From IMG/VR virus record IMGVR_UViG_2850802633_000008: DNA of 17,017 nucleotides; one strand, written 5' to 3'. This DNA comes from a virus (taxonomy: Duplodnaviria; Heunggongvirae; Uroviricota; Caudoviricetes). Numbering within the stretch: the first letter of the stretch is position 1; each line of letters opens with the position of its first letter. A model generated the notes under the pieces. It was not told the DNA's origin, ran no database searches, and was given only the letters and a program-made list of their open reading frames with translations. The translations under genes were made by a program, and so were the position numbers. Of this stretch, positions 1 to 17,017 are shown in pieces.

Positions 1-327
1 TCATTTTTTCCAGAGGCGGTCGAACTCCGCCTTCGCAAAATAAGCGGAAGCCTGGCGAAGGATATCGTTACTGCGGCGCAGTTCACGATTTTCACGCTCC
101 AGCTCTTTCAGACGCTGACGTTCAGCGGTGGTGAGCCCTCCATCACCGCCCCCGGTATCCCGCTCATGCTGGCGAACCCAGACACGCAGAGTCTCCGGCG
201 TACAGCCAATCTTTGGGGCAATGGAACAAATTGTCGCCCATTGTGAGTCATATTCGCCCTGACTTTCCAGAACCATACGGACTGCCCGTTGACGGACTTC
301 GGGGGAAAAACGAGTATTTTTAGTCAT
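1..327 (-). CDS. IS3-family transposase OrfA (IS629-like), 108 aa
   Basis: ORF track 1..327 (-), [23 protein letters not shown]...[34 protein letters not shown]. It has the helix-turn-helix plus leucine-zipper layout typical of IS3-family OrfA and matches my recollection of IS629 OrfA. ATG at 327..325, TGA at 3..1. Confidence 0.85.
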
Positions 328-381
328 CCTGTTTACCTCTTTCTCAGGAAGTTTAGTCTCCAGGATTCCCGGGGCGGTTCA
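1..381 (-). mobile_element. IS3-family insertion sequence (IS629/IS1203-like), left-end portion; element continues beyond the window start
   Basis: Complete orfA at 1-327 (-). The minus-strand sequence from 381 downward begins TGAACCGCCCCGGGAATCC..., a TG-initiated terminal repeat of the IS3-family type about 54 bp upstream of the orfA ATG. The exact terminus at 381 is placed from recalled IS629 end sequence, not an alignment. Confidence 0.7.
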
Positions 382-465
382 CGTTGGGTTTTTCTGCTCA
401 TTATTAGCTCCTTCTGATGCCATTCTATTTCAGGAAGGAGTGTCCGTTAAACTCAGGCTACCTCA
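382..465 (-). mobile_element. Remnant left end of a second IS3-family element (IS600-like), interrupted by the IS629-like insertion
   Basis: Minus strand reads TGAGGTAGCCTGAGTTTAACGGACACTCC...CAGAAGGAGCTAATA ATG AGC AGA AAA ACC CAA CG, which then runs straight into the IS629-like terminus. That is a strong RBS plus ATG (401..399) and seven codons (MSRKTQR), matching my recollection of the IS600 OrfA N-terminus. The outer boundary near 465 is inferred, not verified. Confidence 0.4.
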
Positions 466-2183
466 ACTCTCTTTTCAATAGGGTCAAGGTTTTTCATCCC
501 GCCAAGATCTTCTGCCACCTGTTTGAGCATTGACCTTGTTGATGGCGCATCAATTTTTGCACCTGCAGGCATCGCCTTTTCAACATTGCGATAAAGCTGG
601 TCGCTTCGTTTCATCAGCGCAGACATTCTTCCATTGACCGTATCAATAAACTTGTCGCTCATACCAAGAGCATCTTTTGCACCGGAAACGCGATCAATTA
701 TCTCACCCGCGCCCTGTGCTAGCTGCCTGATTGCTTCATTTTCCTGCACCTGTAGAGCAGAACCCGCACGGGACTTGATTGCTTGCTCAACTGCCTTGTA
801 TTGCTCGTTCCCGGAAAAGTGTGAAGGGAGTAATGAATCAACATTAAGCCTTTCAGCAGACTCCAGAACTTCAGCCTGAGGATTGATATCTAGTTCATCA
901 AGCGATGAAGCGAGATTTGGCCTTTTTTGTGCTGCTACTGTGCGAACGACTTCCTCTGGGTTCTTCGTCGCAGGCGTCATTGGTACACCTTGTGCTACTC
1001 TTGCCTCTGCGGCATGAACCGCAGGATTTGTTGCTGCAGCGGCATCACCGGAGAATGGTGATGTTTCTGTTGGCGCAGTGGTCGCTCTCTGTGCAGATGT
1101 TTTATTGCCACTAATTATATTTGATGCACCACGAACACCACGGGTAACGCCATTTATCAGGCCATGCGTAGCAATGCTAAGTCCGGCATTAATAGCGGCA
1201 TTTTCGGCAAAATCACCCCGTTGATTCGCCGCGTCAGCGAGAGAACCAATGACCATGTTTCCAGCTACACCTGCTCCAGGAACAAGATAACCGCCTATTG
1301 ACTCTCCAGCTTGCGCGTAGGGGTCTGTCGGTCTGTCTACTGGACGATAAACATCATCCAATACTTTTGGCCCCCCAAGCCCCTGACTGATTGCATTAAT
1401 CAGACTTGCGCCACCCTGCAATACGTCAAATGGTATGTTTACCAGACCACGACCAGCCTGTTCTGCAATTTGCCCTGCACTTTGACCACCAGTGAGCCAA
1501 TCGCCAGCTTGTTGCATCAATGATGGTTCTTCCCGTGTTGGTGCATTATTGGCCTGATTAACTGTTTGTTGCTGAACAGGTTTCGGTGCGACAGAACTTA
1601 CGGGTTGAGGTGGCTGCTGACTGGCTGCCTGCTGCTCAATCTGAGCAAATGGATTATTTGGGTCTGACTGCACACCTGATGCCGATACTTGTTCGGATGA
1701 CTGTACTTCCAGTTGTGCAAACGGGTTGTTAGGGGCTTGCTGAGGATGTACCTTTGCAGAGGTGGCGCGCTGTTCGACTGTTGAGTCTGTCACCGGGTCA
1801 CCAGCCCATTGAGCAAAGCGATCATCAACGTAACCGCGGCCTTCAGGTCCTGGCGTATATTCACCACGCTTTGCCTTCATAACGTTGCCGGGACCGTCGT
1901 GATAAGCCTGAAGAGCGTCACGCCAGTTACCAAACTGCTGGTACATCTTTGCCAGATAGCGCGCGCCAGCGTCAGCCTGATATTCGGGGTTTTGCATTTG
2001 CTCATCGGTATAACCCATATCACGCCATGTCCTAGGCATGACCTGAGTCAATCCTACAGCCCCGGCGGAGCTTACTGCGGCAGGGTTGTAAGAAGACTCC
2101 TTGGCACCCAGTGCAGTCATCAACCCTTCTGGCACACCGTAACGTGCGCCAGCCTGCTCTAACAAATCACGGTAATTAACCAT
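453..2183 (-). CDS. Internal virion (ejection) protein with N-terminal lytic transglycosylase (SLT) domain; occupies the P22 gene-16 position
   Basis: ORF track 453..2183 (-), 576 aa, ATG at 2183 directly after the TAA of the upstream gene. The N-terminus carries the family-1 lytic transglycosylase motifs: ...[25 protein letters not shown]... (E-S catalytic motif, GLxQ(V)MP) and ...[11 protein letters not shown]... (AYNAG-like). The rest is Q/A/P-rich low complexity, typical of ejection proteins. The last four codons and stop may lie inside the IS600-like end. Confidence 0.75.
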
Positions 2184-3515
2184 TTACTGCCCCAAAGATG
2201 GAAGATATCCGTAGCGATTAATGAAGTCGATTGACAGCTCGGGGTGCTGCTTCAGGTAATCTATAGAAGCCTGAGGCGCTTCCACTCGCTTGATACCGTT
2301 TTGCTGAACGTACTTACCAACCGCCTCATTACGCTTCTGGTTGAGCGTGTTCAGGATGACGCCAGCGTTGCGACGAAAGGACTCCTCGCTCTGCGAGTTC
2401 TGCAGCGAACCAACAGCCTAGTCGAGCTTTTTGCCCTCGGCATCAGAAAGTGCGCCCATGCCTCGCATGGCCTGAACCGCTGTCAGGTATGCTTGTGATT
2501 TAAAGGTATCAAGTCGTGCCTGAGTGTCTGCAGCCTGTGAGCCTGGAACGTTGGGGATTACTCCACGTAAGCCTGTAATGCTCTTAAGTGAAGGAGAACT
2601 AACGATATCGTTCAGAGTGAACATGCTGGTTGTGAGGGTGTTGATGCCGTCTTTGTAGCCATCATTTAGCGCTTGCTGCTTCTGCTGCAACTGCTGGTTG
2701 TTGGCTGCTATGCGGCTCTGTATTTCCTGGCGCTTCAGGTCGTTAGTTTCTGCTGATAGCATCCGGTCAAGGCGCTTATTTTCGTTGTTAATGCGGTTTG
2801 TTTCTGCGTCCAGATTAATGCGCTGCTGACCTAAATTCGCCTGGATATCTTGTCCGCGCATTGTGATTGCCTGATTCCGAGCGGCGGTTTGCGAATCCAG
2901 ATCCTGACCGCGCATGGTAACCTGGCGACCCTGCATTTTATCCTGTAGGTCAAAGTATTTTTCGGGCCCGAGACTGTTCATCCCCAGGTGATCGACAAAT
3001 TCGCCGAACTGCCGCGGGTTCTGTTGGTACATCTGAGCGACGTCATGAGGATTAACGCCAACACGAGCTAACTCACCGGCGTTGTTTTGCAGCCATGATT
3101 GCATTGCTTCTGGAGACGATGACGCAAGGCGTGCGCCAGCCGCTAAGGTGCCGATAGAATTACGCTGCTCTTCATCAATGAATCCCATGCCTTTACGAAC
3201 GGATTCAATCTGGTCTGGATATTGAGTAGCCAACTGACGCAAAGCACCGCGATCACCAGACGCATAAGCATTAGCGTACGCCTGCTGAAATTCTTTCTGC
3301 CGCTGAGCCTGCTTTTCCTGCTGAAAAACACCCGCAATACCTGAAAGACCTTGCAAAGCAGTCAGCCCAACATTGTTAGCGCCTGAACGCTCAATATCAT
3401 TGTTCTGCCTGATAAGCTGAAGCGTATTGCCGATGTCATTTACGCTCGGAGCGTTTGAGTTGACGCCGCCGATACCAGCCAACAATCCGCCGTTTGTTCC
3501 TTGCCAAGTAGCCAT
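2184..3515 (-). pseudogene. gp20-like ejection protein interrupted by an in-frame TAG (2418-2420)
   Basis: ORF track 2418..3515 (-) gives 365 aa (MATWQGTNGG...AEGKKLD) ending at TAG. The same frame stays open for 78 more codons (AVGSLQNSQSEESFRRNAGVILNTLNQKRNEAVGKYVQQNGIKRVEAPQASIDYLKQHPELSIDFINRYGYLPSLGQ) and ends at TAA 2184-2186, immediately before the ATG of the next gene. Gene order matches the P22 7-20-16 ejection-protein block. Confidence 0.65.
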
Positions 3516-3524
3516 GATTACCCC

Positions 3525-4217
3525 TTAAAACAACGAGCCAAGCAATCCGATACCAGCACCAATACCAGCGCCCCAAGGCGTTGATGTTCCCAAAAGGCTG
3601 GCAAGACCTGCACCGGCAATCGCACCAGACGTGCCACCGCTAATTGCAGTCTGAAGACTTGATGGTTTATTGGCATTAGCAGCGGCAAGAGCTGCGCTTT
3701 GCTGTGCAATGCTGCTCATGTTGTTGGCGTACGTCTGCCCGGCGTTTGCCTGACCTTGCAGCGCACCAAGCCCAACGTTTGCCAGATTGTTGTAATTGCT
3801 CATCTGATTTGATAACCAAGACTGACCGAGTGTCGGCGCGATCGTAGCCAGTTGATTGCTTGTGGCTGTCGAACCAAGTCCACCCGTCGCCTCCGCAGCA
3901 GCAAGACTCTGGTAACGCGCCTGCCCTGCAAGGTCTTTATACTGCTTAGAGTTGTAATACTGATTAAGTGCCTGCCCCTGACCTTCTAAACTGGAAAGGT
4001 TCTGAAGCTGGTTAACATACTGCTCCGCAAGAGGCGTGAACGGAGCAAGGTTTTTCATGATCGTCTGCCACTGCTGATTTTGCAGGTCTGCAGCATACTT
4101 CTGGGCTTCTGCTGCATACTTTGCGCTTTTATCAGAACTGCCACCTTTCCCGCCTTTTTCAGGGCAATAAGGTTCCTCGCCGCGCAGTTTTCTGCCCAGC
4201 TTAAATGCATATAACAT
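3525..4217 (-). CDS. gp7-like ejection (internal virion) protein
   Basis: ORF track 3525..4259 (-). The likely true start is the ATG at 4217..4215 (MLYAFKLGRKL...), preceded by GGGAGA with a 5-nt spacer and lying 2 nt after the TAG of the upstream gene. About 230 aa, Q/A/N/G-rich with a Gly-rich hydrophobic C-terminus; size and position match P22 gp7. Confidence 0.7.
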   Translation of the reverse strand: MLYAFKLGRKLRGEEPYCPEKGGKGGSSDKSAKYAAEAQKYAADLQNQQWQTIMKNLAPFTPLAEQYVNQLQNLSSLEGQGQALNQYYNSKQYKDLAGQARYQSLAAAEATGGLGSTATSNQLATIAPTLGQSWLSNQMSNYNNLANVGLGALQGQANAGQTYANNMSSIAQQSAALAAANANKPSSLQTAISGGTSGAIAGAGLASLLGTSTPWGAGIGAGIGLLGSLF

Positions 4218-4219
4218 GG

Positions 4220-4675
4220 CTATCTCCCGTGATTCAGGAAGTCGATTAGTTCTTCGCATGTGCCGCTGTAAAAAGTCACGTCATCCACGCCTTTGAAGTA
4301 TTTCTTGATGGTTCCTACACGCTTAAGGCCAATCATTGCGCAGTACATCTGACCGTGTCGGAATTTGCGTGCAGCGAACGATGTTACGCACTGAACGGTG
4401 GTGTTAGTCAGAATGTATCGCCAGAACGCCAGCCCAATTTCCTTGCTGAAGCCGCGAATCTCTGGCAGGTACATGGCGTGGCAATCTAATGTCAGCGGCT
4501 GAATCTCCTGATAGTAAACAATGCCGCCAAACTGACCGTGCACGTTCACCTCAAAGTAACGGCATTCAGGTTTGTAGTCGTATCCATCACCGTTGTTGCT
4601 CCCGGCGATAATGTCAGGGTGATTTCCGACTGCTTCTATCAGGTCGATGTTTCGCGTTGGTTTGAATGTAATCAT
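4220..4675 (-). CDS. gp14-like virion assembly protein (position-conserved, function uncertain)
   Basis: ORF track 4220..4678 (-). The first track codon is GTG; the ATG at 4675..4673 overlaps the tail-needle TGA (TGATG). About 151 aa. Assignment is by position between the tail-needle and gp7-like genes, as in P22. Confidence 0.55.
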   Translation of the reverse strand: MITFKPTRNIDLIEAVGNHPDIIAGSNNGDGYDYKPECRYFEVNVHGQFGGIVYYQEIQPLTLDCHAMYLPEIRGFSKEIGLAFWRYILTNTTVQCVTSFAARKFRHGQMYCAMIGLKRVGTIKKYFKGVDDVTFYSGTCEELIDFLNHGR

Positions 4676-5523
4676 CACTGCTCCGCGATTATCTTGATGG
4701 TTGTGGCAGTAAACGCCGCACCATTCGACTGAATGGTTAACGTACTGCCATTTGTGGCAAGAAAGCCGTCTTTATCCACGCTGAAGAACGTAGCTAACAG
4801 GATGTTGTCGGTTGTTGTCGCCGCATTACGACTGCTGACCAGTGTGTCAGGAACAGAGCCGGAAAAGGTTAGCTGCATTGACCTGTTGGCGGTTCCGCTG
4901 GGCCACGTGCCGACAATCGACAACTTGAAGAGCAGGGTTTTGTTCTCGTTGAACACAACCATCTTGTTGTTAACGGTGTCGAAGAATGGTGCCAACGAGC
5001 CGGATGACGGTGTGAGCGTTTTCAGCAGGCTAACAAGGTTGGTCGGCGCTGTCGGGATGGTTACAGATACACCAGAGTAAACAACCTCTGACTTCTTGCG
5101 TGTGGTTGCATACTCCAGAGCATCGATGCGCGTTTCATGGTCTGAAACCTGCGACTCCAGCGACTGAACTCTTGTGTCAAGCGACGAAATATCGCTTTCA
5201 TTCTGAGCTATTCGTGTTTCATGGTCCTGAAGAGTTGATTCTGCCTGTCTGATTCGCTCCTCATGATTAACAAGCGTTGCTTCCGCAGCAGAAATTCGCT
5301 GCTCATGGTCAGCGAGAATCACATCCTGCTCATCGTTCCTGACCTGTGCATCATAAGCGCCCTGTCCGGCCTCGTTGGCTTTGTTAGCCACGTTACCAAC
5401 ATCAGTGCCCTGTGCGATAACGTAAAGCAGATACGACTGCGAGAAGATATTGCGTGGAAGGACTGATGTATCGAGCCGCGTAGCTTGGATGATTACCGGC
5501 ACATTGAGATTCGAATCAGCCAT
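4675..5523 (-). CDS. Tail needle protein (gp26-like N-terminus with coiled-coil repeats and a distinct C-terminal knob-type domain)
   Basis: ORF track 4675..5523 (-), 282 aa. N-terminus [43 protein letters not shown]... resembles the P22 gp26 N-terminus as I recall it. It is followed by repeated DHExRI heptad-like units and a Ser/Thr-rich C-terminal domain unlike the P22 gp26 C-terminus. Its ATG overlaps the gp10 stop (TAATG). Confidence 0.85.
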
Positions 5524-6941
5524 TACTCAATCCTTATCTGAGCGCCAGACAGAGTGACAGGTGACTTCGTGATAACGCGCAATTTGAAGCCGACATTTTT
5601 CCTGATGCGCCCTACTCGCTTCCACAAAACACGCTTGTCGTAAACGAACGGTTCATTCTGCTCAATCATCTGCTCACGCCCGTAATTGATGCAGTCAGTG
5701 GTTGCAGAGAGAAAAAGGCGGTCGGCGTACTGCGCAACGCCAGTTGACGATTCAACCTCAAGGTCGAACACTCTGGCGTTATCCGCTTTGAAGAGTGGAG
5801 TAAACAGCAGGTGTTCCTGTTGCTTGTCGTACTGGCTGCTGATATCGAATTGCAGTTTCCCGGTAACAGATTCCAGCTTATCGCCGCACGTTATCTGATT
5901 GCCTTCGTAAACGAAGTCGATAGCGCGGTACACATCGTCATACAGACCTGTTTTCAGCACACACCATTGTGGGCCATTGGCGCTTGAAGATGCGTCGTAC
6001 ACGAGGACGTGACGCGGAAGGTGGATAATCAGCAACTCATGAGCATCAAATCGCAGCGATTCCATCACACCATCAGCCAGTTCATCAGCAGTGTAGGAGC
6101 GGAGGATTTTCTCAATGCTCGCGCTGACAATTGGTGACACCTGACCGGAGTCGATGATATACACAGACGGCGCACCCGTTGCCGGATTGCTGATAAACGC
6201 ATACGAATCAGCGAATGGCGTTTTGCAGTAAGTTCCGGCAATGCCTTTCTGCACCATCAGCGATGGTTGTGCAACATACAAAGCGGCACCAACGGTGGTT
6301 GCGCCAGTCAGGGAGAAATATTCAATAGTCGATGAACCAAAGCAGACGATGAAGTCTCGCCATGTCCCGATACCGATGATGCCGTCAGGCTGAGACTCGG
6401 CACGATATTGTGCGCTGTAACGGTCAGGATGAGATTCGTCTTCAAGGTCAGTGATAAACCATGAATCAGTTCCGTCTTTTGACCACGCATAACGCCCACG
6501 TAAGCGCGTAATGTCGCGAACTGAACCTAACTCATACTGAGTGAATCCACTGTCTGTAGGCCAGTTTGAGACGGTTTTGACCGTGCCATCATAGCGATAC
6601 TCGACCAGTTGACCATTAACGCCTACCGCCTGTGATGTCCGACCATGCGCCATTGATACACGACCACTTCCGGCAACATCACCGACTTCACTTTCTCCTT
6701 TGTACAGCTTGCCGCCACACACGCGATAAACAGCATTCTGCGCCATGTTGTACTCGACGCCGCGAGATACACCGTTCACGTCAGAACGTTTGGCAATGCC
6801 CGGGAATGAGCGAAGATATCCGCTGCTGTTCAGGATTTCTTTGGGTGTAGCCAGCATATTCACTGGCAGATAGTCGATATAGTCGGCGTTTCGGAAGTCT
6901 TTGCCGACACCTTTCATAAGCGGAAGTTGCTGAATAGGCAT
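5523..6941 (-). CDS. gp10-like head completion / tail hub protein
   Basis: ORF track 5523..6941 (-), 472 aa, the same length as P22 gp10; sits between the gp4-like and tail-needle genes. The start overlaps the gp4 stop (TAATG). Confidence 0.85.
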
Positions 6942-9913: not shown

Positions 9914-12079
9914 TTATTGAGGTGTCTCGGCTACTCCGCCGGAGGGGATTTGAACTTGACGCATAAGATTCGCGAAATCCATGCGTTGTGAATGAGTCTG
10001 GTCTGCATCTTTAAGAAGCAGCTCAGCGTTAGCACGAGCATCTTTGCTGCGCTGTTGCTGGAATTGACCTACGAGCCTGAGGTACTCACGCAGTTCTGCC
10101 TGCTTGTCGAGGTCCATATTGTTGAATATTTCTGCAATCTTCGCGGCGTTGAGTTGGTTTTGGGCTTCAACCTTGGCAGCTTCAACCTGAATCTGCGCCT
10201 GTTGGTTCTCTGCCTTGAGCAATTCAGCCTGACCTTGCAGAAGGATACCCTGCGCCTGAATTTGCTCTGCTGATGGCTGCTGCGGCTGTTGTTGTGCCTG
10301 CTGCACCATCTCCATCTCTTCAGGTGTTTCTGGTTTCTTCAGCCCCATCATCACCAGTTGCTTGTTCGCGTACTCTCGCATCATCTCGACGCCTTTACCG
10401 TCAAGCAGCGTGAAGTATTGCAGCATCAGCATCTGGAACTCTGGAGTACCTTGCGGAACCTTGGTGAGCAACTCCTGAATCTCTGCGCGGTTCTGTTCCT
10501 TCATACTCTGGAAGGATGGCCCAACGTCTGTATAGCACTCATATCGACCGCGAATGTCGTTGAGTGTGACCACATTGCCGGACTGGTAATCGACAACTTG
10601 CGCATAGAGTTGAACGTCTTTCTCGCTTCCATCTTCAAGTGTCAGCGTTACATGACGAGGAACGTCATAAATATCGTTGACCATTGAGGCATAAATCTCG
10701 CCATCACGTCGCATTGCGGTAGCCAGGTTATCCTGAAACACGTATGTCTCAAGGTCTGCCCGCATGTTCAGTTGATTGACGGTATCAAAAGCGACCTGAC
10801 CATTTGCCGCCTGCGCATCCACGCCAAGACTAGCCACTTCTTTCACTGCGTTGGTGGCAGCCTCAAGCATGTAAGCGTTGGCTTGCGGCACTTCAGGGTT
10901 TTCCATGTAGGAGATTGGACCAATCGGCAGGTCGTTACCGTTTTCATCGGTCCTGTTCTGCAGATAGTACGGATAGTCATCATTTCCGCCGTACATGTAT
11001 TCGTAGCCTTCGATTTGCTCAGGGAAGAAGGTCGGTTTCTTCTTCGGTGACCGAGCAACAATATCGGCGTTGAACGACATAATCATGTTACGAAGGCGTT
11101 GACCGTCTTTCGTCAGCCTTACCACACCCTCGTAGCACTCCTTGTCACCAGCGAATGACCATTCGCCATACACTGGAACGATTGGAATATGCTCTCCGGC
11201 TATCTTCTCGCGGTCTTTCAGTATCTGCGTACAGGTGATGATCGACTTATACACACGCCGACGCTTCACCTTGCGCTCTGCTACCTTAATGAATCCACGA
11301 TTAGCCAGGTCGTCGATGACGTCTTTGATATCCTGCTGGTAATAGCTGACCGGCTCACCTGTCAGCGGGTCGCGGTAGATGAAGACCTTCTCCTTCTCCT
11401 CTTCTACCTCGTAATACTCAGCGACGTAGACGACATCATTCGACACCCACGGGAATAGCCATGTATCGTTAGGATTCTGGAAAGATGGCAGGGTATCCGG
11501 GTCAATACCGTAATCCTCTGCGAACTCTTTCCAGCCATTGCGCGACAAGGCGTTAATCACCGTGCAGTGCTTAGCGTCGCTCTTATCCATCTGCTTGCTG
11601 TTGGCGTCTCATATGACGTGTGAGCAGGCTTCATGGATTGGCAGGCGTCGGATTACCTGATTGTTGCTTGTTGGATCGTTGTCTTCGTACTGCGTGACCA
11701 GACGCCATGCACCAACGCCTGACTCTATCTGCTCACGAACGCCAACGTTAACGGCAATCTTTGCCGTGTTATGGCGCATATCAGTACGATACATCCCCAT
11801 CAATACATCGGCTGCATCAGGATTAGCGCCGTCTTTGGGTCGGAAGAGAACGTCGACAGGGTTCCGGCGCATCTCTGCGACCAGTTTCCTGACCCCCGGG
11901 CGAACAACATCGAATTGTCCGCGATATTGCAGGGTAGTGTAGTTTGATAGCCAGTCATCCCATTGCGACACTCGGCTAAAATACAGGTCATTTGTCGCCT
12001 CGGTTCTGGCTTCATCGCTCGCCATCCAGTCTGCGTCAAACTTACACAGAATGGAATTGAGTCTGTTTTCGTCGGCCAT
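9914..12079 (-). pseudogene. Portal protein (P22 gp1-like) interrupted by an in-frame TGA at 11609-11611
   Basis: ORF track 11609..12079 (-, 156 aa, [43 protein letters not shown]...HEACSHVI) and 9914..11590 (-, 558 aa, [11 protein letters not shown]...VAETPQ) are in one frame. The gap reads [21 protein letters not shown]. The recalled P22 portal has Trp at that position (HVIWDSNSK), so this is TGG->TGA. Combined length is about 721 aa. Confidence 0.85.
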
Positions 12080-13120
12080 TTAAGTTCTCCGTGCGATGGG
12101 CCTGATTGGGGCTGGTATCTTTTTCTCTTTTGGTTTTTTGATGTCGCGCATCATTTTTGCGAAGCGGCGCATCATGTATGCATAGCGAACGGCGGATAGC
12201 ACGTCGTCGTTAAGCTTGACGATTTTCCCGTTTTCATCACGGTGATAGAGGCGGAACTCCTCAAAGAATGGCTCACAGGTATTGAATACTTTGAAGCGAC
12301 CATCGAGCATCATGTCGCGCAATTCAGTGATGCCTGGCTCAACAGCGTTACCGCCATCAGGCCATGTCGCATGCTCCTGCAACATCATAAATCCAGCGTC
12401 TGCATACTGCCCTTTGAGCTGCTCACCGCCGCCCTTCTCGTGCTGGTTTCCATCATGAGGCCATGCGGTTGGCACTTTATGCGCCCATGATTTAACGGCT
12501 CCCCACGCCTGAACGGCTGTTTTTTCTTTCGCCTTCCACACGCGTGAAACGTAGATTGTGTCTGCCTCCTTATCCCACCAAAGCTGAACTTGCGCCTGTG
12601 GGTGATCCCATCCGAAATCCATCCCGCCAATTACGTAGAAGTGATCAGGACACTCGAACGGCTGACACTTAATCGTCTCTTCCGGTATCTGGAAGATTCG
12701 ACCACTACCCATCGTAGGAATACCGCGAGCACGCGCCTCTCTCTCATGCTCGGGATATGATGCGATGATTTGCTCTTTCTGCTCGTCGGTATAGTGCTCA
12801 GCGTCATAGATGGTCATGTTGACCACTTTCTGCGACTTGCTGGGGTTCTTCAGGAACTTGGTAACAACGTCAGACATCCCCATCAGCGGGGTAAACGTCA
12901 GAATTGAGAATTGCCCGTATTTGTTGGTACGGGTAAGACCTTCGCCATAAATGCTGTATGGTGGCTCTTCGTCAAACCACACGCCGTGGATTGTGTCACC
13001 CTGCCAGCGAGCACGGCCTTGCGAGTATGGCTTGAAGTAGCAGATTGAAATGCCATCTTCAACGCCATCAGCCGTGTGATGCTTAACCAGAAGGTGATCA
13101 ACAAGGTTCGGAAAGAAAGG
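12080..13120 (-). pseudogene. Large terminase subunit, 5'-truncated by the IS911 insertion (C-terminal about 346 codons retained)
   Basis: ORF track 12080..12982 (-) starts at an internal GTG. The frame is open upstream with no start codon back to the IS911 end at 13121 and on into the IS to a TGA at 13166-13168. The retained part is the C-terminal nuclease-type region (...VIGGMDFGWDHP...LNDDVLSAVRYAYMMRR...). No Walker-A ATPase N-terminus and no small-terminase gene are present. The stop abuts the portal ATG. Confidence 0.8.
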
Positions 13121-13192
13121 TGAAGTGGCACACTGAATTTGGCCACCTGAACAGAGGTGATATGCTCACCTCAGAACAACACAGGTGCTCCA

Positions 13193-14361
<1,169 letters not shown>

Positions 14362-14369
14362 CCACTTCA

Positions 14370-14762
14370 ATATGGACCATCTGTCGTGGTGCCACAATGG
14401 TGGATGGTAAGCCCGTCATACCGGGAATGAAGCTGTCGAAGGAAAAATGCGACCAGGTTAACGCTATTGAACGTGATAAGGCGCTGGCATGGGTGGAGCG
14501 CAATATTAAAGTACCACTGACCGAACCACAGAAAGCGGGTATAGCGTCATTTTGTCCCTATAACATTGGCCCAGGTAAGTGTTTCCCGTCGACGTTTTAT
14601 AAGCGGCTGAATGCCGGTGATCGTAAGGGCGCATGCGAGGCGATTCGCTGGTGGATAAAAGATGGTGGGCGCGATTGCCGCATACGTTCAAATAACTGCT
14701 ATGGACAGGTTATTCGTCGTGACCAGGAAAGCGCATTAGCCTGTTGGGGGATAGATCAGTGA
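14370..14762 (+). pseudogene. Phage lysozyme (endolysin, lambdoid R21/T4-lysozyme-like family), 5'-truncated by IS911
   Basis: ORF track 14355..14762 (+) starts at a TTG inside the IS911 right repeat. The native sequence begins at 14370 (IWTICRGATMVDGKPVIPGMKLSKEKCDQVNAIERDKALAWVERNIKVPLTEPQKAGIASFCPYNIGPGKCFPSTFYKRLNAGDRKGACEAIRWWIKDGGRDCRIRSNNCYGQVIRRDQESALACWGIDQ). The N-terminal roughly 45-50 residues, including the expected catalytic Glu, are missing. Confidence 0.8.
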
Positions 14763-15226
14763 GCTGAGTCGCCGCGATTATTTATGCTCTGGTTATCTGC
14801 ATCATCGTCTGCCTGTCGTGGGCGGTCAATCATTACCGTGATAACGCCATCGCCTACAAAGAACAGCGTGATAAAAAAGTCAGTGAGCTGAAGCTGGCGA
14901 CCGCCACCATTACTGACATGCAGCAACGCCAGCGTGCTGCTGATGTACTCGATGCTAAATACACGAAGGAGTTGGCTGATGCGAAAGCTGAAAATGATGC
15001 TCTTCGGCGCAAGCTTGATAATGGTGGCCGGGTGCTCGTCAAAGGAAAATGCTCTGTGCCATCCTCAGCCGAAACCTCCAGCGCCTCCGGCATGGGCAAT
15101 GATGCCACCGTCGAACTCTCTCCAGTTGCTGGACGAAACGTTCTCGGTATCCGGGACGGAATCATCAGAGACCAGACAGCACTGAGAACGCTTCAGGAAT
15201 ATATCAGGACGCAATGCCTTCGATGA
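14759..15226 (+). pseudogene. Rz: Rz i-spanin (lambda Rz-like) with TGA at codon 3
   Basis: GTG AGC TGA at 14759-14767 overlaps the lysozyme stop. The same frame then encodes the expected N-terminal transmembrane segment ([31 protein letters not shown]...) and continues into ORF track 14918..15226 (...[34 protein letters not shown]...[10 protein letters not shown]). Lambda Rz begins ATG AGC AGA GTC ACC GCG ATT ATC as I recall, so the Arg codon is replaced by a stop. There is no in-frame ATG/GTG/TTG between the TGA and 14918. Confidence 0.7.
14979..15185 (+). CDS. Rz1: Rz1 o-spanin (outer-membrane lipoprotein), embedded in the +1 frame of Rz
   Basis: ATG at 14979 with AAGGAG 8 nt upstream. 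[44 protein letters not shown]... carries a lipobox (VAGC) and a proline-rich periplasmic segment, and lies wholly inside Rz. The track ORF 14934..15185 starts 15 codons upstream. Confidence 0.8.
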
Positions 15227-15400
15227 TAGAGATAATTTTACTCATCATCCTTCACATCTGGCTCTGTAGACAGGGTGGTGATCACTTCTGGAGGGAATCC
15301 AGATTAAACATCTCATTGCTGATGCTTAAAGTTGAGCATTTGGCGCGCGGTAAGGGGCTGCGTTTAGATAAGAGCCAGTCATCACAAACACCAGGATTTA

Positions 15401-15426
15401 GCCTCGCATTCGCGGGGCTTTTTATT
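15401..15426 (+). terminator. Candidate intrinsic terminator downstream of Rz/Rz1
   Basis: GCCUCGC-AUUC-GCGGGGC (7-bp stem with one G-U pair, 15401-15418) followed by UUUUUAUU (15419-15426). It ends only 18 nt before the ATG of the next gene. Confidence 0.4.
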
Positions 15427-15788: not shown

Positions 15789-16694
15789 CTATATTTCCAG
15801 ACATCTGTTATCACTTAACCCATTACAAGCCCGCTGCCGCAGATATTCCCGTGGCGAGCGATAACCCAGCGCACTATGCGGATGCCATTCGTTATAATGC
15901 TCGAACGCCTCTGCAAGGTTCTTTGCTGCCGTTAACCCGTCTGGTTTGGGCATGATACTGATGTAGTCACGCTTTATCGTTTTCACGAAGCTCTCTGCTA
16001 TTCCGTTACTCTCCGGACTCCGCACCGCCGTGTTCTTCGGTTCAAGTCCCAACATCCGGGCGAACTGGCGTGTTTCATTAGCCCGGTAGCATGAACCATT
16101 ATCCGTCAGCTACTCCACTGGAGACGACGGAAGATCGTTGCCGAAGCGGCGTTCCACCGCTCCCAGCATGACATCCTGTACTGTTTCACTGTTGAAGCCG
16201 CCGGTAGTCACCGCCCAGTGCAGTGCCTCACGATCACAGCAATCCAGCGCGAACGTGACACGCAGTCTCTCTCCGTTATCACAGCAGAACTCGAACCCGT
16301 CAGAGCACCATCGCTGATTGCTTTCTTTCACGGCCACTCTGCCTGTATGTGCCCGTTTCGATGGCGGTACAGCAGGTTTTCGCTCAAGCAACAGCGCATT
16401 CTGGCGCATGAGCCGGTAAACACGTTTGGCATTGATCGCAGGCATACCATCAAGTTCTGCCTGTCTGCGAAGCAGCGCCCATACCCGACGATAACCATAC
16501 GTGGGCAGCTCTCCGATAACATGGTGTATACGGAGAAGCACATCCGTATCATCAGTGTGACGACTGCGGCGGCCATCCATCCAGTCATCGGTTCGTCTGA
16601 GAATGACGTGCAACTGCGCACGCGACACCCGGAGACAACGGCTGACTAAGCTTACTCCCCATCCCCGGGCAATAAGGGCGCGTGCGCTATCCAC
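15789..16694 (-). pseudogene. insD: IS2 transposase InsD (OrfB) interrupted by an in-frame TAG at 16110-16112
   Basis: ORF track 16110..16694 (-, ...[11 protein letters not shown] then stop) and 15789..16055 (-, [11 protein letters not shown]...) are in one frame. Translating the gap gives [33 protein letters not shown]. The recalled IS2 InsD reads [14 protein letters not shown], so this is TGG->TAG. Confidence 0.85.
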
Positions 16695-17017
16695 TTTTTT
16701 GCCCGTCCATATTCAACGGCTTCTTTGAGGAGTTCATTTTCCATCGTTTTCTTGCCGAGCAGGCGCTGGAGTTCTTTAATCTGCTTCATGGCGGCAGCAA
16801 GTTCAGAGGCAGGAACAACCTGTTCTCCGGCGGCCACAGCAGTAAGACTTCCTTCCTGGTATTGCTTACGCCAGAGAAATAACTGGCTGGCTGCTACACC
16901 ATGTTGCCGGGCAACGAGGGAGACCGTCATCCCCGGTTCAAAGCTCTGCTGAACAATTGCGATCTTTTCCTGTGTGGTACGCCGTCTGCGTTTCTCCGGC
17001 CCTAAGACATCAATCAT
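16652..17017 (-). CDS. insC: IS2 InsC (OrfA), 121 aa
   Basis: ORF track 16652..17017 (-), [61 protein letters not shown]...[41 protein letters not shown]. Matches the recalled IS2 InsC. Confidence 0.92.
16694..16700 (-). promoter_or_regulatory. IS2 programmed -1 frameshift heptamer A-AAA-AAG in the insC/insD overlap
   Basis: Plus strand CTTTTTT at 16694-16700 is AAAAAAG on the minus strand, in register with the insC frame (A-AAA-AAG). The insD frame is the -1 frame relative to insC. Confidence 0.7.

What the first reader, a model, noticed from the sequence alone, without database searches (positions are those of the whole stretch)
453..2183. Ejection protein carrying an N-terminal lytic transglycosylase domain
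The protein in the gene-16 position has textbook SLT motifs (AKESSYNP...AVGLTQVMP...AYHDGPGN) in its first roughly 100 residues, followed by a long Q/A/P-rich region. This would be a cell-wall-cutting activity delivered with the ejected internal proteins, analogous to T7 gp16. From memory, I do not think the P22 prototype gp16 carries such a domain, so this may be a module swap.
Basis: partly seen in the sequence, partly recalled or inferred. Interest (0 to 1): 0.5.

Follow-up and report, generated by a model that had tools for sequence, protein, structure and literature searches.

The report
Truncated ejection protein with SLT head
This is the front two-thirds of a P22-like phage DNA-ejection protein (gene-16 type) that starts with a real cell-wall-cutting (lytic transglycosylase) domain; the architecture is already annotated in Shigella phage Sf101 and many E. 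coli prophages, and this copy is cut off by an insertion sequence inside a dead Shigella flexneri prophage.

Summary
The minus-strand ORF 2183->453 starts with an SLT domain (Pfam PF01464, 90 bits, E 9e-26). Its catalytic Glu29 aligns with Slt70 Glu478, and a confident model superposes on Slt70 and on the T7 gp16 N-domain. A Q/A/P-rich linker and a gp16-type body follow, and the gene sits last in the 14-7-20-16 ejection cluster. P22, Sf6, HK620 and CUS-3 gp16 lack SLT, so the "module swap" idea holds. One 98.5%-identical SLT head sits on Sf6-type (IME10), CUS-3-type (Dewey), HK620-type (Shimwellia prophage) and Sf101-type bodies. The Sf101-type body also occurs, 92-97% identical, with two short SLT-less heads.

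It is not new. Phage Sf101 carries a 98.4%-identical 911-aa gene annotated "transglycosylase". The exact 576-aa protein is a RefSeq Shigella "lytic transglycosylase domain-containing protein". 68 of 5426 complete E. coli genomes carry the head.

This copy is a pseudogene. IS600 cuts it after codon 573 of 911. The gene 20 partner and the portal have nonsense codons, and the large terminase is IS-truncated.

The likely function of intact relatives (inferred) is local peptidoglycan cutting by gp16 during ejection, as in T7.

The parts
453..2183 (-). ORF as found: 576 codons plus stop, a truncated gene-16-type ejection protein
   Evidence: 98.4% identical to residues 1-573 of Sf101 gp13, which is 911 aa.
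1800..2183 (-). SLT / lysozyme-like head, residues 1-128 (Pfam match covers residues 7-110, window 1854..2165)
   Evidence: Pfam SLT 90.2 bits. AlphaFold2 model of residues 1-135 has pLDDT 86.6 and pTM 0.81. Foldseek: Slt70 TM 0.75, T7 gp16 TM 0.77 and 0.70.
2097..2099 (-). Codon of Glu29, the predicted catalytic acid (E-S motif)
   Evidence: Aligns with Slt70 Glu478. Invariant in 19 heads down to 49% identity.
2031..2033 (-). Codon 51, Arg in this copy where Sf101 and 102 of 113 related heads have Gly; it lies directly after motif II (GLTQVMP)
   Evidence: R51 occurs only in some truncated Shigella alleles.
1539..1799 (-). Q/A/P-rich linker, residues 129-215, predicted disordered
   Evidence: Composition. 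pLDDT below 50 for the equivalent stretch of the full-length homolog model.
1707..1733 (-). Linker repeat 1, PNNPFAQLE (residues 151-159)
   Evidence: Two NPF motifs are present in 107 of 113 SLT-head proteins.
1635..1661 (-). Linker repeat 2, PNNPFAQIE (residues 175-183). The 97.8%-identity block shared with IME10 ends here.
1104..1538 (-). Conserved gp16 junction segment, residues 216-360 ([41 protein letters not shown]...). All alternative heads join the body here.
   Evidence: 73.5-82% identical to P22 gp16 residues ~53-195. Head comparison.
466..1103 (-). Remaining gp16 body, residues 361-573; the C-terminal 338 residues of the intact protein are missing
382..465 (-). 84-bp left end of IS600. 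It supplies the last base of codon 573, codons 574-576 (EVA) and the stop.
   Evidence: Junction sequence. Annotated 'IS3-like element IS600 family transposase' in E. coli genomes.
1..381 (-). Second IS3-family element inserted into the IS600 fragment (IS629-like by my recollection); orfA at 327..1
2184..3515 (-). Gene 20 homolog, the cognate partner of gene 16, with a CAA->TAA nonsense at codon 366 (2418..2420) that removes 78 C-terminal residues
   Evidence: Pfam Inj_translocase. Base-by-base comparison with Sf101.
3525..4217 (-). Gene 7 homolog (ejection protein)
   Evidence: Pfam P22_gp7, E = 3.7e-134

Best explanation
The ORF is the IS-truncated remnant of an Sf101-type gene 16, the last and largest of the three internal 'ejection' proteins of P22-like podophages. 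It lies in a defective Shigella flexneri prophage.

The intact protein (911 aa in Sf101) has four parts:
1. A family-1 lytic transglycosylase head (residues 1 to about 128, catalytic Glu29).
2. A disordered Q/P-rich linker of about 90 residues carrying two PNNPFAQ[LI]E repeats.
3. A conserved segment shared with P22 gp16 residues ~35-195.
4. A divergent, mostly helical C-terminal body.

Proposed mechanism for intact relatives (inferred, not shown). gp16 is packaged in the head and has no signal peptide. On infection it is ejected through the tail and the gp7 outer-membrane channel into the periplasm. There the SLT head cuts glycan strands locally, which lets gp16 reach the cytoplasmic membrane and makes room for the gp20 dodecameric barrel that crosses the peptidoglycan. 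This is the job the gp16 N-domain does in T7.

The head plus linker is an optional N-terminal cassette that recombines, at the conserved junction segment, onto any gp16 body type.

In this window the gene is dead. It lacks the C-terminal 338 residues, and its partner gene 20, the portal and the large terminase are also inactivated.
For: SLT identity:
- Pfam 90.2 bits. E29 aligns with Slt70 E478.
- E29-S30, G44-L45-x-Q47-V48-M49-P50 and A93-Y94-x-x-G97-P98-G99-N100 are invariant across 19 heads.
- Model pLDDT 86.6. Best structural matches are Slt70, LtgA, Pseudomonas Slt, MltE and T7 gp16, the last both in the virion core and in the ejectosome.

gp16 identity:
- Gene order 14-7-20-16.
- PHROG 770 'DNA transfer protein', E = 1e-106.
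- 73.5% identity to P22 gp16 over residues 221-371.

Truncation and decay:
- Sf101 gene 13 is 2736 bp. The IS600 junction follows codon 573.
- Gene 20 TAA at codon 366. Portal TGA at codon 157 and IS-truncated terminase.
- Loss of the last 33 or 66 residues of P22 gp20 already gives non-functional virions (PMC10883804).

Modularity:
- The Sf101 body is 92-97% identical in SLT-less proteins carrying P22-type or HK620/Sf6-type heads.
- The same head sits on Sf6-type (IME10, 88%), CUS-3-type (Dewey, 92%) and HK620-type (P0050, 70%) bodies.
- An SLT-bearing gp16 equivalent occupies the same position in Skarpretter.

Mechanistic context:
- For P22, Yu et al. 2026 (bioRxiv 10.64898/2026.09.03.749273) propose the order gp7*, then gp16, then gp20. 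In their model gp16 crosses the periplasm to the cytoplasmic membrane, the gp20 barrel crosses the peptidoglycan, and gp16 residues 1-205 are predicted to contact the gp20 C-terminal plinth.
- The T7 gp16-N transglycosylase is needed for genome internalisation when peptidoglycan is highly cross-linked (PMC8954989).
- No N-terminal hydrophobic segment was found.
Against: - No enzymatic, virion-proteomic or genetic data exist for any SLT-bearing P22-like gp16 in the literature I could reach. Activity and timing are inferred.
- P22 itself manages without this domain, and a muralytic activity has been attributed to its gp4 (PMC5380687). The head is therefore dispensable at least on some hosts, and the window also encodes a gp4 homolog.
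- This copy carries G51R next to motif II, so even the domain may be impaired here.
- The full-length model is low confidence (pLDDT 60.7), so the domain arrangement beyond the head rests on sequence only.
Confidence: 0.85

Rival explanations
1. The SLT head of these gp16 proteins is catalytically silent. It would serve only as a peptidoglycan-binding anchor or structural element of the channel.
For: P22, Sf6, HK620 and CUS-3 work without it, and P22 has another virion-associated lysin, gp4. In T7 the gp16 N-domain is also a structural 'wing' of the periplasmic tunnel (PMC8954989).
Against: The catalytic Glu-Ser pair and motifs II and III are invariant in heads down to 49% identity. That is the pattern expected under selection for catalysis, not merely for fold.
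Confidence: 0.08
2. The truncated 576-aa protein has been co-opted by Shigella flexneri, for example as a cell-wall remodelling enzyme, and is maintained by selection.
For: The identical truncated protein is seen on 119 contigs including complete S. flexneri chromosomes, and its cluster has 227 members.
Against: - S. flexneri is clonal, so identity across isolates needs no selection.
- There is no signal peptide or N-terminal hydrophobic segment to reach the periplasm.
- G51R sits next to motif II.
- The neighbouring late genes are decaying in parallel.
- The gene lies in a late operon whose upstream part is disrupted by IS elements.
Confidence: 0.03
3. It is a lysis-cassette endolysin or a tail-fibre-associated lysin (PHROG labels it 'lytic tail fiber protein') rather than an internal ejection protein.
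For: PHROG 21143 and the RefSeq Sf101 record use the name 'lytic tail fiber protein'.
Against: - The domain is fused to a gp16 body and sits directly after genes 7 and 20.
- The tailspike is a separate downstream gene in Sf101, Dewey and Skarpretter.
- The lysis cassette with its own lysozyme lies elsewhere.
- PHROG 21143 has a profile length of exactly 576, so it appears to be built on this truncated form.
Confidence: 0.03

Closest known systems
Shigella phage Sf101 gp13 (AII27837.1, 'transglycosylase'; Lederbergvirus)
   Same: 98.4% identical over residues 1-573, with the same flanking genes 14, 7 and 20 at 98.2% DNA identity.
   Different: Sf101's gene is intact (911 aa) and lies in a viable phage. 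The window copy stops at codon 573 in IS600, and its head genes come from a different mosaic (IME10/Dewey type, 97.7%).
Salmonella phage P22 gp16 (609 aa), the prototype E-protein
   Same: Same position in the 14-7-20-16 cluster. Residues ~53-195 are 73.5-82% identical to window residues 221-360.
   Different: No SLT domain. Instead it has a ~30-residue head (MKVTANGKTF...) plus a short Q-rich stretch. The C-terminal body is not detectably aligned beyond residue ~195 by BLASTP.
Coliphage T7 gp16 (internal core / ejectosome protein with an N-terminal lytic transglycosylase)
   Same: A lytic transglycosylase fold sits at the extreme N-terminus of the largest, last-encoded ejection protein and is followed by an extended non-globular stretch. 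TM 0.70-0.77 to T7 gp16 chains. Weak sequence match over query 4-112 to T7 12-126.
   Different: There is no detectable similarity outside the head. The head is closer in sequence to Slt70 (39.5 bits) than to T7 gp16 (18.8 bits), so the fusion is probably independent. [quoted passage not shown]
E. coli Slt70 catalytic domain and other family-1 lytic transglycosylases (MltC, MltE, MltD)
   Same: E-S, GLxQ and AYxxG motifs and the lysozyme-like fold.
   Different: It lacks a signal peptide, a lipobox and the superhelical U and L domains. It would reach the periplasm through a phage tail rather than by Sec export.
Skarprettervirus / Sortsne / Lumpael / IME_EC2 'DNA transfer protein' (e.g. Skarpretter gp17, 977 aa)
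   Same: An SLT domain 58-66% identical at the N-terminus of the gp16-equivalent, with the same gene order.
   Different: A different genus. In Skarpretter the SLT starts about 36 residues in. The more distant heads I could inspect (prophage proteins P0116, P0120 and P0128) lack the NPF repeats; the Skarpretter-group linkers themselves were not examined.

Membership tests
Pfam SLT (PF01464) / family-1 lytic transglycosylases | Profile score above the curated gathering threshold | tested here: met
   90.2 bits against 21.3, residues 7-110 covering profile positions 2-110 of 117.
Pfam SLT (PF01464) / family-1 lytic transglycosylases | Catalytic Glu in the E-S motif, aligned to Slt70 Glu478 | tested here: met
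   E29-S30 aligns to E478-S479 of 1qsa_A and is invariant in 19 homologous heads.
Pfam SLT (PF01464) / family-1 lytic transglycosylases | Motif II (G-L-x-Q) and motif III (A-Y-N-x-G) | tested here: met
   G44-L45-T46-Q47 and A93-Y94-H95-D96-G97 are present, with H in place of N. This copy has the unusual R51 right after motif II.
Pfam SLT (PF01464) / family-1 lytic transglycosylases | Lysozyme-like (goose-type) fold | tested here: met
   AlphaFold2 pLDDT 86.6. Foldseek probability 1.00 and TM 0.64-0.76 to Slt70, LtgA and Pseudomonas Slt.
Pfam SLT (PF01464) / family-1 lytic transglycosylases | Non-hydrolytic cleavage of MurNAc-GlcNAc giving 1,6-anhydroMurNAc | not testable with these tools
   Needs enzyme assays.
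P22-type gp16 ejection (E) protein | Last gene of the 14-7-20-16 cluster, upstream of the tailspike region | tested here: met
   Neighbours identified by Pfam. Colinear with Sf101, P22, Sf6, HK620, CUS-3 and Dewey. The downstream region here is replaced by IS elements.
P22-type gp16 ejection (E) protein | Sequence homology to P22 gp16 | tested here: met
   73.5% identity over residues 221-371. PHROG 770 'DNA transfer protein', E = 1.2e-106 over residues 108-566.
P22-type gp16 ejection (E) protein | Complete protein including the C-terminal domain | tested here: not met
   573 of 911 codons remain. In P22 the SieA-escape substitutions G532W and P546S map to the gp16 C-terminal region, which points to a functional role for it (PMC10883804).
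P22-type gp16 ejection (E) protein | Packaged in the virion and released before the DNA | not testable with these tools
   Needs virion proteomics or ejection assays on Sf101 or Dewey.
T7 gp16-type internal virion protein with endolysin domain | N-terminal lytic transglycosylase domain | tested here: met
   TM 0.77 (9jyy_I) and 0.70 (7k5c_B). PHROG 342, E = 1.2e-24 over residues 3-238.
T7 gp16-type internal virion protein with endolysin domain | Homology of the remaining ~1100 residues (molecular tape, C-terminal hub) | tested here: not met
   The PDB sequence match is confined to query 4-112. The full-length homolog model has no PDB match at E<=0.001. It may work like T7 gp16-N but is not a member of that family.

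The most novel reading that the evidence does not exclude
The SLT head plus its NPF-repeat linker (residues 1 to about 183-215) is a self-contained, optional cassette that reassorts onto every gp16 body type of P22-like phages. Under this reading P22-like phages split into SLT-plus and SLT-minus forms. The two forms would differ in their ability to deliver DNA through highly cross-linked peptidoglycan (stationary phase, low temperature), as T7 gp16 transglycosylase mutants do. [quoted passage not shown] It would also fix the topology of the gp16 N-terminus as periplasmic.
Probability: 0.5. Interest if true: 0.35.

Novelty: already known. Interest (0 to 1): 0.18.

Why it matters
Little is new for this locus: it is a correctly recognised domain in a decayed prophage gene. 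Three modest points have wider use.

1. SLT-bearing gp16 proteins are common in P22-like phages and prophages: Sf101, APC_JM3.2, IME10, Huey, Dewey, 68 of 5426 complete E. coli genomes, and prophages of Cronobacter, Serratia, Shimwellia, Pluralibacter and Klebsiella. This corrects the generalisation in a 2022 review that this activity is absent from P22-like phages.

2. Natural pairs that share a body at 92-97% identity but differ in the head (Sf101 against P0024, P0025 and P0030) would allow a clean test of what a virion-borne transglycosylase contributes. So would pairs that share the head on different bodies.

3. A periplasm-acting enzyme at the N-terminus supports the topology now proposed for P22 gp16: N-terminal region at the periplasmic face next to the gp20 plinth, body in the cytoplasmic membrane.

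Tried and rejected
- I first translated the plus strand and got nonsense; the gene is on the minus strand.
- I suspected that E. coli F1005 shares the same truncation, because megablast ended at window base 466 and PGAP calls its gene 'missing C-terminus' at codon 573. Rejected: the F1005 gene is an intact 911-codon ORF, 99.7% identical to Sf101.
- I tried to read Casjens & Thuman-Commike 2011 and Casjens & Grose 2016, the papers most likely to describe gp16 sequence types. Neither is held, and a PMC id I guessed was wrong. I therefore cannot say whether the head cassette has been described in print.
Its Foldseek search found nothing significant for the body, so there is no structural link to T7 gp16-C or any other solved ejectosome part.
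- Kyte-Doolittle scanning found only weakly hydrophobic Gly/Ala-rich stretches (maximum 1.2) and no clear transmembrane helix. This agrees with what is reported for P22 gp16.
- The endolysin and tail-fibre readings were rejected on synteny (see rival explanations).
- Precomputed Pfam PF26808 covers the gp16 body in database hits. It is not in the local Pfam copy, so I could not name it.
Full report
**1. What is there**

The finding's coordinates match a 576-codon ORF on the minus strand, 2183->453. The plus-strand translation is full of stops.

Pfam SLT (PF01464) matches residues 7-110 at 90.2 bits, against a gathering cut-off of 21.3, with E = 9.1e-26. NCBIfam gives only sub-threshold matches to lytic murein transglycosylase models (Slt, MltC, MltD, EmtA), so it is none of those equivalogs. 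phmmer against PDB sequences gives E. coli Slt70 as best hit (E = 2.8e-9). In the printed alignment, query E29-S30 aligns to Slt70 E478-S479, the catalytic Glu.

In an alignment of 19 related heads down to 49% identity, these residues are invariant: E29, S30, G44, L45, Q47, V48, M49, P50, A93, Y94, G97, P98, G99 and N100.

An AlphaFold2 model of residues 1-135 is confident (pLDDT 86.6, pTM 0.81). Its best PDB matches are Slt70 (TM 0.75), Neisseria LtgA, Pseudomonas Slt and MltE. It also matches the N-domain of T7 gp16, both in the virion core (9jyy_I, TM 0.77) and in the ejectosome tunnel (7k5c_B, TM 0.70).

Residues 121-215 are Q 18%, A 13%, P 12% and contain two PNNPFAQ[LI]E repeats.

**2. 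Context and identity**

The upstream genes on the same strand, running from the tail genes towards gene 16, are:
- gp4 (P22_Tail-4)
- gp10 (Phage_stabilise)
- an Sf6-type needle
- gp14 (DUF2824)
- gp7 (P22_gp7)
- gp20 (Inj_translocase)

So the ORF occupies the gene-16 position of a P22-like virion module. PHROG 770 'DNA transfer protein' matches residues 108-566 (E = 1e-106).

The nearest phage is Shigella flexneri phage Sf101. Its gene 13, annotated 'transglycosylase', is 98.4% identical over residues 1-573. Window 466-4675 (genes 14, 7, 20, 16) is 98.2% identical to Sf101 DNA without gaps. The head genes instead match IME10 and Dewey at 97.7%, so the prophage is a different mosaic.

The exact 576-aa sequence is a RefSeq 'MULTISPECIES: lytic transglycosylase domain-containing protein [Shigella]', seen on 119 contigs including 4.6-Mb S. 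flexneri chromosomes. The window is therefore from S. flexneri.

**3. This copy is a pseudogene in a defective prophage**

- **Gene 16.** Sf101 gene 13 is 2736 bp, or 911 aa. In the window, similarity stops at base 466. From 465 the sequence is TGAGGTAGCCTGAG..., the end of IS600 (annotation). IS600 is itself interrupted after 84 bp by a second IS3-family element, whose orfA is at 327..1. The last three residues and the stop codon are IS-encoded, and 338 C-terminal residues are missing.
- **Gene 20.** The adjacent gene 20 homolog (2184..3515) has a CAA->TAA change at codon 366 of 443. In P22, loss of the last 33 or 66 residues of gp20 gives non-functional virions, and gp16 and gp20 must be a cognate pair (PMC10883804).
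- **Portal and terminase.** The portal gene has an in-frame TGA at codon 157 (11609..11611). The large terminase is truncated at its 5' end by another IS3-family element.
- **Lysis genes.** The lysis-gene remnants are inverted relative to the virion genes.
- **G51R.** The window allele carries G51R directly after motif II. This change is found only in some of the truncated Shigella alleles, whereas 102 of 113 related heads have Gly.

**4. The 'module swap' idea**

P22 (609 aa), Sf6 (665 aa), HK620 (722 aa) and CUS-3 (719 aa) gp16 give no SLT signal at E<=1 or E<=0.1. Sf101 (911 aa), Dewey (875 aa) and IME10 (an unannotated 797-codon ORF) all do.

BLASTP shows that P22 gp16 residues 34-194 align to Sf101 residues 196-358 at 71%. 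The SLT head and linker therefore take the place of the short P22 N-terminus.

The database search found E. coli prophage proteins whose bodies are 92-97% identical to Sf101 residues ~156/199-911 but which have no SLT. They begin in one of two ways:
- P22-type head: MKVTANGKTF... (P0024)
- HK620/Sf6-type head: MAKAWKDVIASPQYQ... (P0025, P0030, P0035)

All heads join the body at the conserved segment [41 protein letters not shown].

Conversely, the same SLT head (98.5% identical over 129 residues) is found on several bodies:
- An Sf6-type body in IME10 (88% to Sf6 gp16).
- A CUS-3-type body in Dewey (92%).
- An HK620-type body in a Shimwellia prophage (70%; that head is about 79% identical).

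SLT heads 58-66% identical also occupy the N-terminus of the gp16-equivalent in Skarpretter, Sortsne, Lumpael, IME_EC2 and C130_2. In Skarpretter the gene order is the same.

The head is thus an optional, reassorting N-terminal cassette.

**5. How it most likely works (inferred for intact relatives)**

The protein has no N-terminal hydrophobic segment, so it cannot reach the peptidoglycan by Sec export. It can only do so by being ejected from a virion.

For P22, in-situ structures and complementation data lead Yu et al. 2026 to propose the following (bioRxiv 10.64898/2026.09.03.749273):
- gp7* forms the outer channel.
- gp16 is ejected next, crosses the periplasm and settles at the cytoplasmic membrane.
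- The gp20 dodecamer then forms a barrel through the peptidoglycan to a plinth on the membrane.
- The gp16 N-terminal region (residues 1-205) is predicted to contact that plinth.

An SLT head at the gp16 N-terminus would therefore be in the periplasm, at the right time, to open the sacculus locally. This parallels T7, where the gp16 N-terminal transglycosylase is required for genome internalisation when peptidoglycan is highly cross-linked, and where one model has gp16 leaving before gp15 (PMC8954989).

The full-length model of a close intact homolog (P0021, 84% identical to Sf101 gp13) is weak overall (pLDDT 60.7). It predicts a folded head, disordered stretches at 141-267 and 295-455, and a confident helical domain at 460-935. 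No solved structure resembles the body.

Nothing here shows activity, packaging or ejection of an SLT-bearing gp16. Those steps are inference.

**6. Comparison with what is known, and novelty**

- **Membership.** The protein is a member of the SLT family, with all sequence and fold criteria met. It is a gp16-type E-protein by synteny and homology, but an incomplete one. It may work like T7 gp16-N but is not a T7 gp16 homolog outside the head. The head is also closer in sequence to Slt70 (39.5 bits) than to T7 gp16 (18.8 bits), which suggests independent fusions.
- **Existing annotation.** The feature is already in databases: Sf101 'transglycosylase' (2014 record), PGAP 'lytic transglycosylase domain-containing protein' in Shigella and E. 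coli, and PHROG 21143. The head DNA occurs once each in 68 of 5426 complete E. coli genomes.
- **Literature.** In the papers I could read, the domain is never discussed for P22-like phages. The Sf101 paper only notes that ORF11-13 form a divergent injection module (PMC4159516). [quoted passage not shown] I could not access the Casjens comparative papers that may already describe it.

**7. Verdict**

The feature is already known and annotated, so interest is low. The one useful by-product is the explicit head-by-body reassortment map, which offers natural isogenic pairs for testing what a virion-borne transglycosylase contributes in P22-like phages.

Noticed in passing
window 2418-2420 (minus strand; gene 20 homolog 2184-3515): CAA->TAA nonsense at codon 366 of 443 relative to Sf101. 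It removes 78 C-terminal residues of the gp20-type periplasmic channel protein.
   Followed up: yes
window 11609-11611 (minus strand; portal gene 9914-12079): In-frame TGA at codon 157 splits the portal gene into 156-aa and 558-aa ORFs. The gene is otherwise 97.7% identical to the Dewey and IME10 portal.
   Followed up: yes
window ~12080-13150 and ~13121-14371: The large terminase lacks its 5' part. It abuts an IS3-family element (orfA 13157-13495, orfB 13522-14361; IS911-like by my recollection).
   Followed up: partly
window 14355-15423: Lysis-gene remnants (an N-terminally truncated lysozyme ORF at 14355-14762 and an Rz-like ORF at 14918-15226) lie on the plus strand, inverted relative to the virion genes. 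They match the Sf101 lysis region at only 73-94%. This suggests an IS-mediated rearrangement.
   Followed up: partly
window 1-465 and 16110-17017: There are nested insertion sequences. An 84-bp IS600 end (382-465) is interrupted by a second IS3-family element (1-381). An IS2 copy (TnpA/TnpB) lies at the right edge of the window.
   Followed up: partly
L002 (E. coli F1005, NZ_OY754353.1) 1983-4718: PGAP annotates this gene as a pseudogene 'missing C-terminus' covering only the first 573 codons. The DNA is in fact an intact 911-codon ORF, 99.7% identical to Sf101 gene 13. The likely cause is annotation against the abundant truncated Shigella protein. PHROG 21143 likewise has a profile length of exactly 576.
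   Followed up: yes
L006 (phage IME10, NC_019501.1) 4501-6894: The 797-codon gene-16 ORF (SLT head plus Sf6-type body) is not annotated at all in the IME10 records.
   Followed up: yes
window 1635-1661 and 1707-1733 (minus strand): Two PNNPFAQ[LI]E repeats lie in the linker and are conserved in 107 of 113 SLT-head gp16 proteins. They travel with the head cassette (the IME10 identity block ends right after the second repeat). Their function is unknown; they may be a short binding motif.
   Followed up: partly
P0061 / P0094 (E. coli prophage proteins, 569 aa): An IME10-type SLT-gp16 with a clean internal deletion of residues ~361-585, seen on 66 contigs. It is another recurrent decayed or shortened allele.
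   Followed up: no
window 4675-5523 and 466-4675 versus 9914-13150: The prophage is a three-way mosaic: an Sf6-type needle knob (PF16532), Sf101-type genes 14-7-20-16 (98.2%), and IME10/Dewey-type portal and terminase (97.7%).
   Followed up: partly
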